Origin: an uncultured Candidatus Saccharibacteria bacterium
GTDB taxonomy: Bacteria > Patescibacteriota > Saccharimonadia > Saccharimonadales > AWTP1-31
Length of the DNA: 64,000 bases
NCBI GenBank assembly: GCA_964409615.1
Contig: CAYPDT010000001.1
Coordinates: 14,629-78,628 of the forward strand
Direction of reading: 5' to 3'
The position numbers and the translations under genes are program-made. The notes under the pieces were generated by a model that was not told where the DNA came from, made no database searches, and saw only the letters and a program-made list of their open reading frames with translations. Positions within the stretch are counted from its first letter, which is position 1. Each line of letters starts with the position of its first letter. Positions 18,453 to 58,935 of this stretch are shown here, piece after piece.

Positions 18453-18529
18453 GGGGCCATAGCTCAGTTGATTAGAGCGCAGCGCTGGCAGCGCTGAGGT
18501 CCGGGGTTTGAGTCCCCGTGGCTCCACCA
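18453..18529 (+). tRNA. tRNA-Ala (anticodon GGC), CCA encoded
   Basis: Hand-folded cloverleaf: acceptor GGGGCCA/UGGCUCC with G3:U70, anticodon loop CUGGCAG, T arm CGGGG-UUUGAGU-CCCCG. Confidence 0.9.
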
Positions 18530-26776: not shown

Positions 26777-26862
26777 TGGTGCGCGGGGCGGGACTTGAAC
26801 CCGCAAGCCTTGTGGGCACGACATTTTAAGTGTCGCGTGTATACCGATTCCACCACCCGCGC
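26777..26862 (-). tRNA. tRNA-Leu (anticodon UAA), type II with long variable arm, CCA encoded
   Basis: The reverse complement folds as GCGCGGG acceptor, anticodon loop CUUAAAA, long variable arm, and canonical T arm GCGGG-UUCAAGU-CCCGC. Confidence 0.9.
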
Positions 26863-27350
26863 TAATTCTTATGTTTGTTACGCCCTCTGTGGGTTAATTG
26901 CAGACTGTGGCAATTTGGACAAAGAATACGTAGATTTTCTAGCCGATTATCGGTGTGTATACCGTTAATATGATCGAGCTCAAGTGGAATTCTACCGTCT
27001 TTTGACATTTGGCACCAGCCACATAACTCACATTCTCGCTTTTTAACCTCTTCAGCAAAAAGTCGATTGCGTAACTTATAACTCTGGTAACTATAATTAC
27101 TAACTAAAATCTTATCAAGTGGTATCTTCTTAGAGCTTGCACTGCCAGTCTGCCCTTTACTCCAGCCTTGGCCACTAAAATGACTAACGTCAATGCCCAA
27201 AGCCTCAATACGACGCTGAATTTGCCGATAGTTACCGCCCGCCGGTACTAACCCAAGCCTCATAATGACCATTCGAAAACTACGTGATAGCACAACTGCT
27301 TGACGAAGCTGCGCATCCGTCCAGGATGTATGCGTTCTTTTGTCACTCAC
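26862..27350 (-). CDS. HNH endonuclease
   Basis: CELCGW...LELDHINGIHTDNRLENLRILCPNCH (HNH/Zn-ribbon) with an N-terminal HTH-like module. The stop codon overlaps nt 1 of tRNA-Leu. Confidence 0.85.
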   Translation of the reverse strand: MSDKRTHTSWTDAQLRQAVVLSRSFRMVIMRLGLVPAGGNYRQIQRRIEALGIDVSHFSGQGWSKGQTGSASSKKIPLDKILVSNYSYQSYKLRNRLFAEEVKKRECELCGWCQMSKDGRIPLELDHINGIHTDNRLENLRILCPNCHSLQLTHRGRNKHKN

Positions 27351-27413
27351 CCCTTAATTATACTAATTAACAGATGTAGAAACCCTACAAAATTGTAGGA
27401 TAATTATCATTAA

Positions 27414-28649
27414 TTAGGATAATTTTAACTTTGCTTCGGCAAGCCGTTGAATAGCTAGAATGTAAGCGGCCGTCCGCAGGTTGGTATCATATTGTTTTTG
27501 AACACTGACCACTGCAGCCACGGCTGTAGCCATTTGAGTTTTGAGCTTAGCAAACACTTTTTGTTCTGACCAGGTTTGATTGTGCTTGTTCTGGTACCAC
27601 TCGTAGTAGCTCACAGCAACACCCCCAGCATTTGCAAGTACATCAGGAATGATAGTTACCTTCTTCTTGGCCAACATTTCGTCGGCCTCGGTCGTGACAG
27701 GGCCATTAGCTAACTCCAAAATTATGGTGGCCTGAATAGATTTAGCGTTTTGCACTGTTATGGCGGCTTCTAATGCAGCCGGGGTGAGGACGTCGACAGA
27801 CTGTGAAAAAATACTGTCTGCCGGTAAAACTTGACAGTCAATACCTAGGCTTGCTGCCGCTTTAGCCAAGGAGCCTGTCTGTCGCTTTGCAGATTCGAGT
27901 GCCATAATGTCTGAAAATCCATACTCAGAGACAATGGTGTTTTTTGAGTCTGCTATGGCCACTACCTTTATACCCTGCTCCACGGCAAAATATGCTGCAT
28001 ACACTCCTACGTTGCCGAAGCCCTGCACGGCCATTGTTTGAGTTTTTGGGTCGATATGGTGAAGAGTAAAATATTCAAGTAAGGCATAGATACCGCCCAA
28101 GCCCGTAGCTTGGGTCCGGCCCTGTGAGCCACCATTGTCCAAAGCCTTCCCCGTTACCACCGCCGTGTCGCCGTACTCATCAGCAATCCATGCCATTACC
28201 TGACCATTGGTGTTGACGTCGGGCGCGGGAACGTCAACCGTTGGCCCAATGTGCTCAGCAATTTCCCGAGTAAAGGCTCGGGTCACTTGCTCTAATTCTA
28301 TCGGACTCATGTCTCGTGGGTTAATTTGCAGACCACCTTTACCGCCACCAAAGGGTACGTCAATAACGGTATTTTTGATTGTCATCCACAGACTCAATGC
28401 TTTTGCTTCATCTTCAGACACCTGTGGATGAAAACGCAGACCACCTTTGTAAGGCCCCCGCCAGTTATTGTGCTGCATCCTGTAACCAAGTACCTTCTGC
28501 TTTGTGCCGTCCTCACGAGTAAACGGCACCTCTACATTGATTACATTATTGTGCTGCAATAAGGCATCGACAATATGTTTATCAGTGTTGGCAATTTTAG
28601 CCGCAGACAACAGATTTGCTTGTGCTTCTTCCCATGGGTTCATACACAT
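27414..28649 (-). CDS. gdh: Glu/Leu/Phe/Val-family dehydrogenase (glutamate dehydrogenase-like)
   Basis: KGGLRFHP and VPFGGGKGG motifs with a Rossmann GFGNVG. Start set at the ATG at 28649, preceded by AGGAG plus a 6-nt spacer. The longer ORF would read through a tRNA-like gene. Confidence 0.88.
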   Translation of the reverse strand: MCMNPWEEAQANLLSAAKIANTDKHIVDALLQHNNVINVEVPFTREDGTKQKVLGYRMQHNNWRGPYKGGLRFHPQVSEDEAKALSLWMTIKNTVIDVPFGGGKGGLQINPRDMSPIELEQVTRAFTREIAEHIGPTVDVPAPDVNTNGQVMAWIADEYGDTAVVTGKALDNGGSQGRTQATGLGGIYALLEYFTLHHIDPKTQTMAVQGFGNVGVYAAYFAVEQGIKVVAIADSKNTIVSEYGFSDIMALESAKRQTGSLAKAAASLGIDCQVLPADSIFSQSVDVLTPAALEAAITVQNAKSIQATIILELANGPVTTEADEMLAKKKVTIIPDVLANAGGVAVSYYEWYQNKHNQTWSEQKVFAKLKTQMATAVAAVVSVQKQYDTNLRTAAYILAIQRLAEAKLKLS

Positions 28650-28808
28650 AGTGTACTCCTGGACTGCAACGCGTGTCTGCGTTTGTTTACACAAAAATAG
28701 CCCCCTTGGCTGTAAAACCAGATGGGAGCTAGACAATTTGTATAAGTTATCTATTTGTTGATTTCGTTTATTTGAATGTATGTAGATAAATGTATATATG
28801 AACTTGTT

Positions 28809-28882
28809 TGGAGGCACGTACGGGTAACGCTCCCGTCTAGCAGGTTTTGCAGACCTGTGCCTAACTTCTCGGCCAACGCGCC
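28809..28882 (-). tRNA. tRNA-Cys (anticodon GCA), atypical D and T loops
   Basis: 74 nt. Acceptor GGCGCGU/ACGUGCC (one G:U), discriminator U73 plus CCA, anticodon arm CAGGU-CUGCAAA-ACCUG, 4-nt variable loop CUAG. The T loop is AGCGUUA and the D loop lacks GG. Confidence 0.6.
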
Positions 28883-28922
28883 TTACAGCTACCCATTTTA
28901 GCAAGGAACGAGCAACTTGTCT

Positions 28923-29141
28923 CTAGTATGTCGGATGTTCGTCCACATTTTCAGAACGTGATAGGATTTGCGCACCAGCAAGGGCCACGTGCGCCACGCC
29001 AGACATAGGAATCCGTGCTAATCTCAAGGTGATATCCATTGCCGTAACTAGTGCCTTTATAGCCAATCCCGCTTCATACTCAACAACACCCTGTAACGTC
29101 GGGGCAGTTTGTTCGGGAGTATTGGGTTGCGACTCTGGCAT
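28923..29141 (-). CDS. hypothetical 72-aa protein
   Basis: ORF preceded by AAGGA 4 nt before the ATG. No recognisable motif. Confidence 0.3.
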   Translation of the reverse strand: MPESQPNTPEQTAPTLQGVVEYEAGLAIKALVTAMDITLRLARIPMSGVAHVALAGAQILSRSENVDEHPTY

Positions 29142-29154
29142 ATCATCCTTTCTG

Positions 29155-29186
29155 CATAAAAATTACCTGCCAAAACACAGGTAATT
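29155..29186 (-). promoter_or_regulatory. terminator-like hairpin in the leader of the ORF72 / tRNA-Cys / gdh transcription unit
   Basis: Minus strand: AATTACCTG-TGTTTTGG-CAGGTAATT followed by TTTATG. A TTGAAA, 17-nt spacer, TATTCT promoter-like pair lies upstream at 29218..29246. Confidence 0.35.
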
Positions 29187-29407
29187 ACTGCTTAATGCAA
29201 AACCTAGCAAAGCTTATAGAATACCATTTATGCTAATGTTTTTCAAGAGCGTGCAGTTGTCTACGAATAATCATTGTCCTACCCTTGTTGCGCTTGTGCT
29301 ATGATTAAACATGAAATATGGCGTCATGCCACTAATAAGAAGTACAAGCTTTCTATGCAATATATGAGCACACAACAAGCCCAACATATTACCGTTACCG
29401 AGACATT

Positions 29408-30025
29408 ATGCTTCTAGCTGCCTACATCCTACTAGGGTTAGCGCTGGTACTTTTCGTTTTCTGGAAAGTAGTGTTTTTGCGAAACCCCCAACGTAAAACA
29501 CCAAAAGGCGAACTCGTCATTGCGCCAGCTGACGGAAAAATTATCGAGATTTTTGAATTTTCAGGTAAAGACGTCAAGCTTTTTAAAGGCAATCACCGTC
29601 TATTGGGCCTGATTCATACAATGACACAGGATGTCGCGCCAGAGGGGTACATCGTATCAATTTTCATGTCGCCAATGGATGTTCATATTAATCGTGCTCC
29701 AATCACCGGTACCGTTGACCAAGTGATTCATAGTGCAGGTAAGTTTCTTGCCGTCAACACCTTCGAGGCGGGCCTAGTAAATGAAAAGGCCGAAACCACT
29801 ATAACAGGCAGCATTACTGTTAAAATGATTCAAATTGCTGGCTTTTTGGCACGCCGAGTAGTAACTAATGTGCAACCTGGTGATGTAGTTACAGCTGGTC
29901 AAGAAATCGGCCTCATAAACCTCGGTTCGCAAGTTACTATGATTTTGCCCAAGACTGTTACGCTACAGGTTAAGAAAGGCGACCGTACTGTTGCCGGAGA
30001 GAGTATCCTTGCAAAAATCAATTAG
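29408..30025 (+). CDS. psd: phosphatidylserine decarboxylase family protein (short type)
   Basis: N-terminal TM, the pattern PADGKI...SPMDVHINRAPITG, and a self-cleavage-type NLGSQV motif near the C-terminus. Confidence 0.85.
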   Translation: MLLAAYILLGLALVLFVFWKVVFLRNPQRKTPKGELVIAPADGKIIEIFEFSGKDVKLFKGNHRLLGLIHTMTQDVAPEGYIVSIFMSPMDVHINRAPITGTVDQVIHSAGKFLAVNTFEAGLVNEKAETTITGSITVKMIQIAGFLARRVVTNVQPGDVVTAGQEIGLINLGSQVTMILPKTVTLQVKKGDRTVAGESILAKIN

Positions 30026-30032
30026 ACGAATC

Positions 30033-30524
30033 ATGAAGTTGCCCGACTATATAACGTGCTTGAATCTAATTTCAGGCCTGTTGGCCATATATGCCGCCAT
30101 TCATCATCATTACTGGGAATCGGCAACACTGTTGCTAGCTGGAGTCTTTTTTGACGCCATCGACGGATTTGTGGCACGCCGTATGCATATCGAATCGAAG
30201 TTTGGTGCCGAGCTAGACTCTTTGGCTGATTTGGTTACCTTCGGTGTTGCACCCATGGTACTTGTAACCGCCTACTACAACACGCCATGGCTATCATTGC
30301 TATCTATCTTGATTCCGGTAGCTGGTGCCCTGCGCCTGGCACGTCACAATATTAATCGTCACCTTACCAAAGGCTATTTAATCGGCCTACCTATCACCAT
30401 GAGCGGCTTGGTAATGCCTCTACTCATCGTCTTTAAGCTCAGTATTCACGTAGCTGCAGTCACTATAATTGGATTATCGGTGTTCTATGTCAGCACTCGA
30501 CGAGTTAATAAACTACTACACTAG
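30033..30524 (+). CDS. pssA: CDP-diacylglycerol--serine O-phosphatidyltransferase (CDP-alcohol phosphatidyltransferase family)
   Basis: DGFVARRMHIESKFGAELDSLADLV matches D-G-x2-A-R-x8-G-x3-D-x3-D. Start set at MKLPDYITCLN (30033). Confidence 0.85.
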   Translation: MKLPDYITCLNLISGLLAIYAAIHHHYWESATLLLAGVFFDAIDGFVARRMHIESKFGAELDSLADLVTFGVAPMVLVTAYYNTPWLSLLSILIPVAGALRLARHNINRHLTKGYLIGLPITMSGLVMPLLIVFKLSIHVAAVTIIGLSVFYVSTRRVNKLLH

Positions 30525-57332: not shown

Positions 57333-58916
57333 ATGGCAGACATCGATTCTACCAGTAAGCCTCCTGGATCTGGCAAAGCAGTAATATATCTACGTGTTTC
57401 AACAGAAGAACAAGTTGAAAACTATTCGCTAGATACGCAGGCAGATATTTGTCGCAAGGAAGCTGAAAGACGAGGATTTGGGATACTGGAGATCTTCCGT
57501 GAAGAAGGACGCTCGGCAAAGACCATACGTGACCGTCCCACTCTCATAGAGCTATTAGAGTTTTGCCGAAAACACCGAAAAGAAGTTGATGCCGTAATAG
57601 TCTACAGGCTTGATCGAATTTCAAGACAAACAGCTGACTACTTAGCGATACGCAAGAAGCTAACCGAATGCGATATTACCCTCATATCGGCCTCAGAACC
57701 AACGGGCGATACCCCAACCGAACGCTTTATAGAGACCATGCTGGCAGGATTTGCTCAAATGGATAACGATGTTCGGGGTGAGCGCGCGAGGAACGGCATG
57801 AAAGCACGTTTTATGAGCGGTCTATATAATGGTCCGCCTCCTTTAGGCTACGTGAGACAGGACGGATATGCAGCAAAAGACGCGGAATCGTATAGCATTG
57901 TTCAAGAAGCATGGGAACTCATGGCTACTGGCACTAAAAGTCTTCGAGATATGGCTAACTTCCTAAATGAAAAAGGTGTCAGGAATCGACGTAAAGGCTA
58001 CAAGGAAACTCTCATACGCAAACAGACTATGAGTAGTATCTTTCGTAATAAGTTTTACGCTGGCAAAGTCGTGTCTAGGAAGTACGGACAAGAAGTCCAA
58101 GGCCAACACCCACCCATGATCACCGAAGAGGTATTCTACCGTGTACAGGCAGTTTTAGATGGCAAGAACCATAATACGCCCATACGACTTGCCAGACGCA
58201 CTCGAAATAACCCCGACTTCCCTTTGAGGCGTGTTGTCCGTTGCGGTAGATGTGGTCAATCTTTTACAGGTGCTTGGAGTAAAGGTAAACGCTTGCTATA
58301 CGGCTATTACTTTTGTATTAAGCGCTGTGGCGCGAAGTCAAACGTACCATTAGCTGAAATCGAGCCTGAAACCAAAGGCCTACTTGAGAGTATTACATTA
58401 AAGCCTGAGACAACTCAGCTCATTAACGCTTTTATACGGAGAACCTACGTCTTACGAGTAGGTGCTTTACGACTAAAGCGAGATCAGGCCGACATCGAAC
58501 TTAAGAAAGTCTATGAGACACGACAGGCGCTGATAGAGAAAAACCTAGATGGTACCTATTCGGATGAGATATTCAAGGAGCAGAATAAGATATTAGAGGA
58601 AAAGATTGGTGCTATTCAGACTGCAAAAGATGTAGCGACTATCGAAAAGTATAACCTCGAGGCAATCACGCAGTTCATTCAGGATAAGTTTACAAACCTA
58701 AATAACACCTACGAAGAGGCTGATTTAGAGCGTAAACGGGTTTTACTGTGTTCGATATTCCCTAAAGGATTGGCTTGGAGCTATCCGGGTTATTCCAACA
58801 CCCAAATAAGTCCGTTCTACCAGTGTTTTCTCGATATTCAAAATGGAAAGGTCAAAATTGGTGCGGGTTACGGGACTCTAACCCGTGGCCTCGTCCTTGG
58901 CAAGGACGCGCTCTAA
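57333..58916 (+). CDS. large serine recombinase
   Basis: AVIYLRVSTEEQ (catalytic Ser), VYRLDRISR, recombinase domain, Zn-ribbon CGRCGQSF...C-x3-C, coiled-coil C-terminus. Start set at MADIDS (57333). Confidence 0.9.
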   Translation: MADIDSTSKPPGSGKAVIYLRVSTEEQVENYSLDTQADICRKEAERRGFGILEIFREEGRSAKTIRDRPTLIELLEFCRKHRKEVDAVIVYRLDRISRQTADYLAIRKKLTECDITLISASEPTGDTPTERFIETMLAGFAQMDNDVRGERARNGMKARFMSGLYNGPPPLGYVRQDGYAAKDAESYSIVQEAWELMATGTKSLRDMANFLNEKGVRNRRKGYKETLIRKQTMSSIFRNKFYAGKVVSRKYGQEVQGQHPPMITEEVFYRVQAVLDGKNHNTPIRLARRTRNNPDFPLRRVVRCGRCGQSFTGAWSKGKRLLYGYYFCIKRCGAKSNVPLAEIEPETKGLLESITLKPETTQLINAFIRRTYVLRVGALRLKRDQADIELKKVYETRQALIEKNLDGTYSDEIFKEQNKILEEKIGAIQTAKDVATIEKYNLEAITQFIQDKFTNLNNTYEEADLERKRVLLCSIFPKGLAWSYPGYSNTQISPFYQCFLDIQNGKVKIGAGYGTLTRGLVLGKDAL

Positions 58917-58935
58917 ACAACTGAGCTAAACCCGC
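58859..58935 (-). tRNA. tRNA-Gly (anticodon GCC), CCA encoded
   Basis: Reverse complement: acceptor GCGGGUU/AACCCGC, anticodon arm CGUCC-UUGCCAA-GGACG, T arm ACGGG-UUAGAGU-CCCGU, discriminator A plus CCA. Confidence 0.88.

What the first reader, a model, noticed from the sequence alone, without database searches (positions are those of the whole stretch)
28809..28882. Atypical tRNA-Cys(GCA) hidden inside the N-terminal extension of the gdh ORF
The 74-nt sequence folds into a full cloverleaf with Cys identity features: GCA anticodon, U73, a 4-nt variable loop CUAG, and a 13:22 mismatch as in E. coli tRNA-Cys. It also shares the GGCGCGU start of that tRNA. Its T loop is AGCGUUA, so U54:A58 appears swapped to A54:U58 and position 55 is G. 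The D loop (AGAAGUU) has no GG. It is either a functional non-canonical tRNA or a decaying copy. If it is the only tRNA-Cys of the genome it is important.
Basis: partly seen in the sequence, partly recalled or inferred. Interest (0 to 1): 0.55.

Follow-up and report, generated by a model that had tools for sequence, protein, structure and literature searches.

The report
Sole tRNA-Cys with a rewired elbow
This is a real gene for the genome's only cysteine tRNA, and in it several of the "universal" bases that lock the two arms of a tRNA together have been swapped for other bases that change in step, as they do across many related tiny bacteria.

Summary
A 74-nt tRNA-Cys(GCA) with encoded CCA lies at 28809-28882 on the minus strand (ARAGORN; Rfam tRNA 42.2 bits against a cut-off of 29).

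It is the only tRNA-Cys in a 98.45%-complete 1.22-Mb genome. That genome has CysRS and 1812 Cys codons in its long ORFs.

It is not inside gdh. The GDH domains start at residue 118 of the long ORF, and an ATG with a GGAG lies at 28649, so the tRNA sits 159 nt upstream.

In 47 aligned relatives' tRNA-Cys genes (48 recovered) all four stems stay paired, with 12 double-sided changes. Position 18 tracks position 55 without exception: A18/G55 in 27, G18/U55 in 20.

Three forms exist:
- Canonical.
- Intermediate: A18/G55.
- Derived, as here: A18/G55, A54/U58, A16, U59, A60 and G15/G48.

The derived form was seen only in this order, probably Saccharimonadales. A18/G55 also occurs elsewhere in the phylum and in a few other lineages.

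Verdict: a functional tRNA with a compensated, non-canonical elbow, a new variant of a known kind. Expression and charging were not shown.

The parts
28809..28882 (-). tRNA-Cys(GCA), 74 nt with encoded CCA (28809-28811). It has a non-canonical elbow: A18, A54, G55, U58, A60, A16, U59 and G15/G48. G19:C56, R57 and G53:C61 are kept.
   Evidence: ARAGORN. Rfam 42.2 bits. Own model R1 96.7 bits. The layout is given. Covariation is shown.
28895..28923 (-). Promoter-like site. The -35 is GAGACA (28923-28918), followed by a 17-nt spacer and the -10 TAAAAT (28900-28895) with TG just before it. The site ends 12 nt upstream of the tRNA 5' end.
   Evidence: Consensus scan. A TAnWAT hexamer lies within 30 nt upstream in 21 of 29 tRNA-Cys loci examined (G000's own L001 included), against 17 of 348 control windows. 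This is a consensus match only, and no transcription start has been mapped.
28689..28731 (-). Terminator-like hairpin (stem-loop 28731-28698) followed by a U-rich tract (AUUUUUGUG, 28697-28689). It begins 77 nt downstream of the tRNA 3' end, before gdh.
   Evidence: The fold of 28680-28740 (minus strand) gives -19.5 kcal/mol, z -3.51, with 1 of 200 shuffles folding as well. The simple terminator scan did not list it because the loop is long. Its role as a terminator is inferred.
27414..28649 (-). Context: the gdh coding region with its likely true start. The ATG is at 28649-28647 and a GGAG lies 6 nt upstream. The tRNA is 159 nt upstream of this start.
   Evidence: The Pfam domains ELFV_dehydrog_N and ELFV_dehydrog begin at residue 118 of the 496-aa ORF. 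The start was read from the sequence and the ORF list.
26777..26862 (-). Context: tRNA-Leu(UAA). In relatives it is the usual downstream neighbour of tRNA-Cys. Here it is separated from it by gdh and an HNH endonuclease gene.
   Evidence: ARAGORN. tRNA-Leu(UAA) lies downstream on the same strand in 22 of the 29 relatives' loci held. In E. coli cysT and leuZ are 12 nt apart.

Best explanation
This is the single, functional cysteine tRNA of a small (1.2 Mb) genome, most likely a Saccharibacteria (Saccharimonadales) genome. It appears to be its own transcription unit: a promoter-like site, the tRNA with encoded CCA, then a terminator-like hairpin.

It keeps everything CysRS is known to read: the GCA anticodon, U73, G2:C71, C3:G70 and an E. 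coli-like G15/G48 core.

What differs is the elbow, where the D and T loops lock together.
- The G18/psi55 contact is replaced by A18/G55.
- The U54/A58 reverse-Hoogsteen pair is replaced by A54/U58.
- These come with A16, U59, A60 and a purine at 48.
- The parts that partner molecules stack on or that close the loop are kept: G19:C56, a purine at 57 and G53:C61.

I infer that the replacements compensate for each other, so the L-shape survives and the tRNA works in translation. It cannot carry m5U54 or psi55.

Shown: the gene, its uniqueness, its conservation and the covariation. Inferred: the geometry of the new contacts, transcription, charging and use on the ribosome.

The likely order of events is canonical, then A18/G55, then the derived form. 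The allele does not follow the relatedness of the flanking genes, so replacement by lateral exchange is likely.
For: Real tRNA.

Sole tRNA-Cys:
- ARAGORN finds 42 tRNAs and one Cys in a 98.45%-complete genome.
- Model R1 gives 96.7 bits here. The other 11 hits (48.0 bits or less) coincide with tRNAs of other identity.

Needed by the cell:
- cysS scores 398.1 bits against a cut-off of 340.
- 582 ORFs of 250 codons or more hold 1812 Cys codons, and 479 of them have at least one.

Conserved with compensation (47 tRNA-Cys genes, 37 distinct sequences):
- All four stems are 100% paired, and 12 stem pairs change on both sides.
- The covariation score is 0.435 against 0.127 for shuffles, reached by 0 of 500 shuffles. 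Sliding the partners gives 0.04-0.07.

Tertiary covariation:
- 18/55 is A/G in 27 and G/U in 20, with no exception in 47.
- 54/58 is U/A in 33, A/U in 13 and G/G in 1.
- All 14 with a purine at 54 also have A16, A60 and a purine at 48. One has A15/A48.

Wider samples:
- Of 150 listed matches from 401 genomes of the order, I counted by eye 42 derived, 48 intermediate and 60 canonical. None showed A18/U55 or G18/G55.
- Of 22 tRNA-like A18 matches in 301 genomes of the phylum, all have G55.
- All 19 A18-type tRNA-Cys in named public contigs have G55.

One tRNA-Cys per genome: 320 of 401 genomes match, and all but one (G159, two matches) have a single match.

Identity elements were compared with those listed in PMC9976931 and PMC7566577 (passages read).

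Promoter-like and terminator-like elements.

Same-genus contrast:
- G001 has a canonical tRNA-Cys at the same LemA / gdh-like / tRNA / psd-pssA position. Its flanks are 92% identical to G000 in protein, but the tRNA is only 76% identical.
- G002 has more distant flanks (67-79%) but a 97%-identical derived tRNA.
Against: - There is no direct evidence of a mature, charged tRNA.
- Four metatranscriptome runs from a single study hold the region, but only as contigs. Cover is flat over genes of both strands, so DNA carry-over is not excluded.
- The family score is 17-22 bits below that of three of the four canonical relatives scored (41.5-46.2 against 62.6-64.0; the fourth, L020, scored 55.5).
- The fold energy is not better than shuffles (z -0.90).
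- The genome is a 40-contig assembly, so a second tRNA-Cys in an unassembled part cannot be strictly excluded.
- The geometry of A18/G55 and A54/U58 was not modelled, because no RNA 3D tool was on hand.
- Related genomes are not independent, so the perfect 18/55 association counts far fewer events than sequences.
- Mixed alleles within a genus could partly reflect mis-binned contigs, although the G001 contig is 52.9 kb and syntenic.
Confidence: 0.88

Rival explanations
1. It is a decaying tRNA-Cys pseudogene, a relic copy drifting in an intergenic region.
For: - The T and D loops lack four near-universal bases.
- The Rfam score is low for a bacterial tRNA, and default filters miss it.
Against: - It is the only tRNA-Cys, while CysRS and 1812 Cys codons are present.
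- The stems are perfect, and all four stems are 100% paired in 37 distinct orthologues with 12 double-sided changes.
- The odd loop bases are themselves conserved and covary.
- The same form is the single match in dozens of other genomes.
Confidence: 0.02
2. It is a specialised tRNA kept out of translation, like the staphylococcal tRNA-Gly species used for cell-wall synthesis. Under this reading a canonical tRNA-Cys is hidden in an unassembled part of the genome.
For: The S. aureus non-proteogenic tRNA-Gly species also lack G18-G19 and U55 (preprint 10.1101/2025.10.30.685614, passages read). The assembly has 40 contigs.
Against: - No second tRNA-Cys was found in G000.
- No second one was found in the relatives either: 319 of the 320 matching genomes have one match each, whichever form they carry.
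- G19:C56 is kept here, unlike in the staphylococcal species.
- Completeness is 98.45%.
Confidence: 0.03
3. The tRNA is functional, but the rewired elbow is not neutral compensated drift. It is an allele spread laterally under selection. Possible advantages are escape from a factor that reads the T loop or elbow (a toxin, nuclease or phage product), or lower dependence on T-loop modification.
For: - The three forms are scattered over families and even within genera. In g1, G000 and G002 are derived and G001 is canonical. In g12, G013 is a derived variant and G022 is canonical.
- The allele disagrees with the flanking-gene similarity at a syntenic site.
- A18/G55 recurs in distant lineages: contigs titled Berkelbacteria, Omnitrophota, Bdellovibrionales and Caldarchaeum.
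Against: - No candidate antagonist was identified.
- truB is still present, and the other 41 tRNAs keep U54-U55.
- Scatter can also come from recombination among co-resident relatives without selection, or from binning errors.
- No tree-based test was run.
Confidence: 0.15

Closest known systems
Escherichia coli tRNA-Cys (cysT)
   Same: - 74 nt with the same arm and loop lengths, and the same GGCGCGU 5' strand.
- U73, the GCA anticodon and a CUAG variable loop.
- G15/G48 in place of the usual purine-pyrimidine Levitt pair.
- A 13/22 mismatch and a 7-nt D loop.
- A tRNA-Leu(UAA) gene downstream.
- Cys identity elements as listed in PMC9976931.
   Different: - E. coli has the canonical elbow, G18 G19 with T loop UUCGACU. 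Here the D loop is AGAAGUU and the T loop AGCGUUA.
- The 13/22 mismatch is A/A in E. coli and G/A here.
Eukaryotic tRNA-Ala(AGC) and eukaryotic initiator tRNA-Met with A54
   Same: These are natural cytoplasmic tRNAs with a purine at 54. In tRNA-Ala the A54 pair always co-occurs with a purine-purine 15/48 pair and with purines at 16 and 60 (PMC7566577, passages read). Here all 14 sequences with a purine at 54 also have A16, A60 and a purine at 48.
   Different: - Those tRNAs keep A58 (A54/A58, with m1A58), G18 and U55.
- Here 58 is U (A54/U58, a true swap), 18 is A and 55 is G.
- This one is a bacterial elongator tRNA and the sole acceptor for its amino acid.
[quoted passage not shown]
   Same: They are bacterial tRNAs that lack the conserved D-loop G18 and T-loop U55, and so lack psi55 (preprint 10.1101/2025.10.30.685614, passages read).
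   Different: - Those species also lack G19, are excluded from translation and coexist with proteogenic isoacceptors.
- This tRNA keeps G19:C56 and is the only tRNA-Cys.
Laboratory-selected T-loop variants of suppressor tRNA (Zagryadskaya, Doyon and Steinberg, Nucleic Acids Res 2003)
   Same: As I recall that paper, in-vivo selection from randomised loops kept mostly U54/A58 but also gave functional G54/A58 and G54/G58. A natural G54/G58 variant occurs here in relatives: L006, and G360 in the listing.
   Different: I saw only the citation, in the reference list of PMC7912444. The paper is not held, so its content is recalled, not read. I do not recall A54/U58 or A18/G55 among its variants.

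Membership tests
tRNA (Rfam RF00005) | Covariance-model score above the family's gathering score over the full model | tested here: met
   The score is 42.2 bits against 29, over model positions 1-71 of 71, with E 1.1e-07. Default filters lose the hit.
tRNA (Rfam RF00005) | Cloverleaf with four stems, supported by compensatory changes in homologues | tested here: met
   The MFE fold is the cloverleaf. The 20 stem pairs are 100% paired in 37 distinct sequences, and 12 of them change on both sides. Of 500 shuffles, 0 reach the observed covariation.
tRNA-Cys (bacterial identity set) | Anticodon G34 C35 A36 and discriminator U73 | tested here: met
   Read from the sequence. The identity set is as given in PMC9976931.
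tRNA-Cys (bacterial identity set) | G2:C71 and C3:G70 in the acceptor stem | tested here: met
   The strands GGCGCGU and ACGUGCC give G2:C71 and C3:G70. Across relatives, 2:71 is G:C in 37 of 37 and 3:70 is C:G in 34 and U:A in 3.
tRNA-Cys (bacterial identity set) | E. coli-type core: G15/G48 and a 13/22 mismatch | tested here: met
   This tRNA has G15/G48 and G13/A22. E. coli has G15/G48 and A13/A22. PMC7566577 lists the combination G9, G13/A22 and Y21 as a common bacterial tRNA-Cys form.
tRNA-Cys (bacterial identity set) | Aminoacylation with cysteine by the cognate CysRS | not testable with these tools
   A cysS gene is present (398.1 bits). Charging itself needs an experiment.
Canonical tRNA elbow (T loop U54-U55-C56-R57-A58 with G18-G19) | U54/A58 reverse-Hoogsteen pair | tested here: not met
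   This tRNA has A54 and U58. In relatives the pair is U/A in 33, A/U in 13 and G/G in 1. The canonical anatomy is as described in PMC7912444.
Canonical tRNA elbow (T loop U54-U55-C56-R57-A58 with G18-G19) | G18 contacting U55 (psi55) | tested here: not met
   This tRNA has A18 and G55. The two positions covary in 47 of 47 sequences.
Canonical tRNA elbow (T loop U54-U55-C56-R57-A58 with G18-G19) | G19:C56 pair, purine 57 and G53:C61 closing pair | tested here: met
   G19:C56 is found in 47 of 47 sequences. G53:C61 is found in 37 of 37 distinct sequences (columns 51 and 59). G57 is present here.
Non-proteogenic (cell-wall) tRNA | Coexists with a translation-competent isoacceptor for the same amino acid | tested here: not met
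   There is only one tRNA-Cys in G000. Of the 320 matching genomes of the order, 319 have one match each.
tRNA pseudogene | Broken stems or lost identity elements, no constraint in relatives, and a functional copy elsewhere | tested here: not met
   The stems are intact and the identity elements present. Constraint and covariation are seen in relatives. No other copy exists.

The most novel reading that the evidence does not exclude
The derived tRNA-Cys would be a second, isofunctional solution to the 'universal' tRNA elbow: A18/G55, A54/U58 and G15/G48, with no T54, no psi55 and no G18. It would serve as the sole cysteine tRNA of free-standing bacterial genomes. It would also be a laterally exchangeable allele that has repeatedly displaced the canonical one within Saccharimonadales under selection. 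The selection could be escape from something that reads the T loop.
Probability: 0.15. Interest if true: 0.75.

Novelty: new variant of a known kind. Interest (0 to 1): 0.58.

Why it matters
**Textbook invariants.** U54 (T), U55 (psi) and G18 are treated as hallmarks of cytoplasmic tRNAs in all three domains (PMC7912444). The bacterial tRNAs known to lack U55 are kept out of translation. Here a tRNA without them appears to carry all cysteine decoding.

**A natural mutational series.** Relatives supply canonical, A18/G55 and fully derived forms, plus G54/G58 and A15/A48 variants. This shows which elbow contacts can be exchanged only together, and it makes the compensation directly testable with transcripts and point mutants.

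**A wider trend in the lineage.** tRNA-Gly(GCC), tRNA-Ala(GGC) and tRNA-Pro(UGG) of the same genome have swapped G19:C56 for U:A or A:U.

**Annotation.** Filtered covariance searches missed this gene three times. Pipelines may therefore wrongly report such genomes as lacking tRNA-Cys.

Tried and rejected
- **Expression.** One search for sequencing runs found four wastewater metatranscriptome runs from one study, holding 93-99% of the sampled words of 27400-30100. Laying them gave contigs only. Cover was flat across genes of both strands, and loose ends fell exactly at the tRNA borders (28808/28809 and 28882). Those loose ends are best read as other strains sharing the tRNA with different flanks. 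This shows neither transcription nor its absence.
- **Whole-collection scan.** The pattern for the D arm had only 14 specified bases and was too loose. It gave organism names for 19 real tRNA-Cys genes but no usable global count.
- **Comparison with E. coli.** A blastn of the tRNA against the E. coli genomes found nothing. I then fetched cysT by coordinates.
- **Literature.** Searches returned nothing on a bacterial A18/G55 or A54/U58 tRNA-Cys. The search for 'Saccharibacteria' with 'tRNA-Cys' gave 0 papers. The search for 'tRNA', 'A18', 'G55' and 'D-loop' gave 0. Subscription papers and supplementary files were not searched, so 'not in print' is not established. Supplements of tRNA surveys could hold such sequences.
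- **A paper I could not read.** The Zagryadskaya 2003 paper is not held.
- **Fold energy.** As evidence it was rejected (z -0.90).
- **Chance hits.** A weak MicC-like hit (19.2 bits against 90), a SNORA25 hit and an ssnA hit near the tRNA are chance matches. The MicC alignment merely picked up the terminator-like hairpin.
- **Not attempted.** I ran no tree-based test of lateral transfer, no comparison of CysRS between carriers of the three forms, no 3D modelling of the RNA (no tool) and no tRNAscan-SE run (not installed).

Full report
**What is there**

On the minus strand of 28809-28882 lies a 74-nt sequence. ARAGORN calls it tRNA-Cys(GCA). Its layout is:

GGCGCGU UG GCCG AGAAGUU AGGC A CAGGU CUGCAAA ACCUG CUAG ACGGG AGCGUUA CCCGU ACGUGCC U CCA.

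Rfam's tRNA model scores it 42.2 bits against a gathering score of 29. The match covers the whole model, with E 1.1e-07. That hit appeared only when 501 bases were searched with permissive filters. Three other searches missed it:
- the default scan of the 64-kb window, which listed 3 tRNAs;
- the whole-genome family search, which listed 41;
- a permissive scan of 28.8 kb.

The minimum-free-energy fold is exactly the cloverleaf. Its energy is not unusual for the composition (z -0.90), so the case rests on the covariance score and on comparative evidence.

The comparison with E. coli cysT holds when checked on the K-12 record. Both are 74 nt, start GGCGCGU, have a CUAG variable loop and G15/G48, and carry a 13/22 mismatch.

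**It is not inside gdh**

The 496-aa ORF that spans the tRNA starts at a TTG. Its GDH domains begin only at residue 118. Residue 86 is an ATG at 28649, with GGAG 6 nt upstream. The tRNA therefore lies 159 nt upstream of the likely gdh start, in an AT-rich spacer.

Two flanking elements suggest a separate transcription unit:
- A promoter-like site ends 12 nt before the tRNA: GAGACA, 17 nt, then TG-TAAAAT.
- A hairpin followed by a U-rich tract begins 77 nt after it (z -3.51).

A -10-like hexamer lies within 30 nt upstream in 21 of 29 tRNA-Cys loci examined (G000's own L001 included), against 17 of 348 control windows. These are consensus matches, not mapped transcript ends.

**It is the only tRNA-Cys and it is needed**

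The genome is 1,217,575 bases in 40 contigs and 98.45% complete. ARAGORN finds 42 tRNAs covering all 20 amino acids, with one Cys.

I built a covariance model from 47 tRNA-Cys genes of the lineage, with all three forms included. It scores this locus 96.7 bits. Its other 11 hits score 48.0 bits or less and are tRNAs of other identity.

A cysS gene is present (398.1 bits, cut-off 340). ORFs of 250 codons or more hold 1812 Cys codons, and 479 of 582 such ORFs have at least one.

**Relatives**

BLAST with the tRNA found a match in 49 of 61 related genomes. I recovered 48 full-length tRNA-Cys genes from these. One locus was cut by a contig end. They fall into three forms:
- **Canonical (21):** D loop AGYGGUU, T loop UUCRANN.
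- **Intermediate (13):** D loop AGNAGUU, T loop UGCGANU, that is A18 and G55.
- **Derived (14, this window's included):** D loop AGAAGUU, T loop AGCGUUA. Variants are AGCAUUA and GGCGGUA.

On the 47 sequences of 74 nt (37 distinct):
- The four stems are 100% paired and 12 stem pairs change on both sides.
- The covariation score is 0.435 against 0.127 for shuffles (0 of 500 reach it), and 0.04-0.07 when partners are slid.
- Position 18 and position 55 are A/G in 27 and G/U in 20, with no exception.
- 54/58 is U/A in 33, A/U in 13 and G/G in 1.
- All 14 sequences with a purine at 54 also have A16, A60 and a purine at 48. That is G15/G48 in 13 and A15/A48 in 1.
- G19:C56 never varies, and G53:C61 never varies.

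These sequences are related, so the counts overstate the number of independent events.

**Wider samples**

A general tRNA-Cys pattern matched 320 of 401 genomes of the order. All but one genome had a single match.
- Of the 150 matches printed (171 were not shown), I counted by eye 42 derived, 48 intermediate and 60 canonical.
- None combined A18 with U55, or G18 with G55.

A pattern requiring A18 matched 30 of 301 genomes sampled from the phylum.
- Of 32 printed matches, 10 are not tRNA-like by my reading.
- All 22 tRNA-like matches have G55.
- The three with A54 are all in this order.
- The 16 matches outside the order, in 15 of 286 genomes, are U54-G55.

Among named public contigs, 19 tRNA-Cys genes carry the A18 D arm, and all have G55.
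- The six derived ones come from records titled Candidatus Saccharibacteria or Saccharimonadales. This is my basis for the taxonomic placement.
- Intermediate ones also come from records titled Berkelbacteria, Omnitrophota, Bdellovibrionales / Pseudobdellovibrionaceae and the archaeon Caldarchaeum.

The A18/G55 exchange therefore recurs in tRNA-Cys. The full derived form was found only in this order among the genomes searched.

**Order of events and mobility**

The derived form keeps A18/G55 and adds further changes. Possible way-stations exist:
- L019 has A16 with a U54-G55 loop and C48.
- L018 has G48 with a U54-G55 loop.

I infer the order canonical, then A18/G55, then derived.

The forms are scattered across families and even within genera. 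The clearest case is in the window's own genus.
- **G001** has a canonical tRNA-Cys, 76% identical in sequence. It sits at the same position, between LemA, a gdh-like gene and psd-pssA, on a 52.9-kb contig. Its LemA and pssA products are 92% identical to G000's.
- **G002** has more distant flanks (pssA 79%, psd 67%) but carries a 97%-identical derived tRNA.

A tRNA less conserved than its protein-coding neighbours points to allele replacement, probably by lateral exchange. I ran no tree test, and binning errors could add to the scatter elsewhere.

**How it most likely works**

By the published anatomy (PMC7912444, passages read):
- U54/A58 closes the T loop.
- U55 contacts G18.
- C56 pairs with G19.
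- Purine 57 is sandwiched between these two contacts.
- G53:C61 anchors the loop.

Here the outer, partner-facing elements are kept (G19:C56, R57, G53:C61), and the two inner contacts are exchanged as pairs. The strict co-variation is the evidence that each exchange is compensated. The geometry is inferred.

The co-occurrence of A54 with purines at 16, 48 and 60 parallels what Westhof and colleagues described for eukaryotic tRNA-Ala. There A54/A58 always accompanies R15/A48, with purines at 16 and 60, and residues 48 and 54 are said to move together (PMC7566577, passages read).

The aminoacylation determinants listed for bacterial tRNA-Cys are all present: U73, GCA, G2:C71, C3:G70 and the G15/G48 core (PMC9976931).

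A direct consequence is that this tRNA cannot carry m5U54 or psi55. The genome still has truB and a U5-methyltransferase-family gene, and the other 41 tRNAs keep U54-U55.

**What argues against**

- No mature or charged tRNA was shown. The four metatranscriptome runs that hold the region come from one study and are kept as contigs. They cover genes of both strands evenly.
- The family score falls from 62.6-64.0 bits in three of the four canonical relatives scored (the fourth, L020, scored 55.5) to 49.8-56.7 in intermediate ones and 41.5-46.2 in derived ones.
- The assembly is not closed.

**Comparison with what is known**

- It is a member of the tRNA family and meets the tRNA-Cys identity set. 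It fails two of the defining contacts of the canonical elbow.
- The known bacterial tRNAs without G18-G19 and U55 are the staphylococcal tRNA-Gly species that are excluded from translation. This tRNA differs in keeping G19:C56 and in being the sole acceptor.
- My seven literature searches returned nothing on a bacterial tRNA-Cys with A18/G55 or A54/U58. Subscription papers and supplements were not covered.

I rate it a new variant of a known kind.

**Context in the same genome**

Three other tRNAs of G000 have exchanged the G19:C56 pair itself:
- tRNA-Ala(GGC) has A19:U56.
- tRNA-Pro(UGG) has A19:U56.
- tRNA-Gly(GCC) has U19:A56.

In 20 full-length tRNA-Gly(GCC) genes (G000's own and 19 from relatives), 14 have U19:A56, 6 have A19:U56 and none has G19:C56. 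Elbow rewiring is thus a trend of the lineage, not a quirk of one gene.

**Claims that rest partly on unpublished genomes**

G058 is one row in the counts and in model R1. G058, G352 and G361 are among the rows I counted.

Noticed in passing
window 58859-58935 (-): tRNA-Gly(GCC) has D loop AGUUGUUUA and T loop UUAGAGU. The near-universal G19:C56 elbow pair is therefore replaced by U19:A56. In 20 full-length tRNA-Gly(GCC) genes (G000's own and 19 from relatives), 14 have U19:A56, 6 have A19:U56 (D loop AGUUGAUA, T loop UUUGAGU) and none has G19:C56.
   Followed up: partly
window 18453-18529 (+); also G000:C1:288684-288759 (outside the window): tRNA-Ala(GGC) has D loop AGUUGAUUA and T loop UUUGAGU. 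tRNA-Pro(UGG) has D loop AGUUGAUA and T loop UUUGAGU. Both carry A19:U56 in place of G19:C56. Relatives were not checked.
   Followed up: no
window 26862-28649 (-): gdh and an HNH endonuclease gene (Pfam HNH_3, 25.5 bits) lie between tRNA-Cys and tRNA-Leu(UAA). In 22 of the 29 relatives' loci held, tRNA-Leu(UAA) follows tRNA-Cys on the same strand, with gaps from 0 nt to about 1.3 kb. In E. coli cysT and leuZ are 12 nt apart. This looks like an insertion into an old tRNA pair.
   Followed up: partly
window 27414-28649 (-); L175, L002, L021, L024: G000's gdh product is only about 34-35% identical to the gdh-like genes that sit beside tRNA-Cys in G001, G002, G006 and G020. Different dehydrogenase genes therefore occupy the same spot in close relatives.
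   Followed up: no
window 28809-28882: Covariance searches with speed filters lose this tRNA, although its unfiltered score is above threshold. Annotation pipelines may report genomes of this clade as lacking tRNA-Cys.
   Followed up: partly
window 28808-28882: In the metatranscriptome contigs, loose ends fall exactly at both borders of the tRNA. One contig carries two differences, at 28840 and 28842. The pattern is what co-resident strains would give if they share the derived tRNA in other genomic contexts.
   Followed up: no
window 28923-29141 (-): A 72-aa ORF directly upstream of the tRNA promoter-like site has no Pfam match. It may not be a gene.
   Followed up: no
L012 (G052): One derived tRNA-Cys has A15 together with A48 (D loop AAAAGUU, variable loop AUAA) in place of G15/G48. 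This is a double change in the Levitt pair.
   Followed up: no
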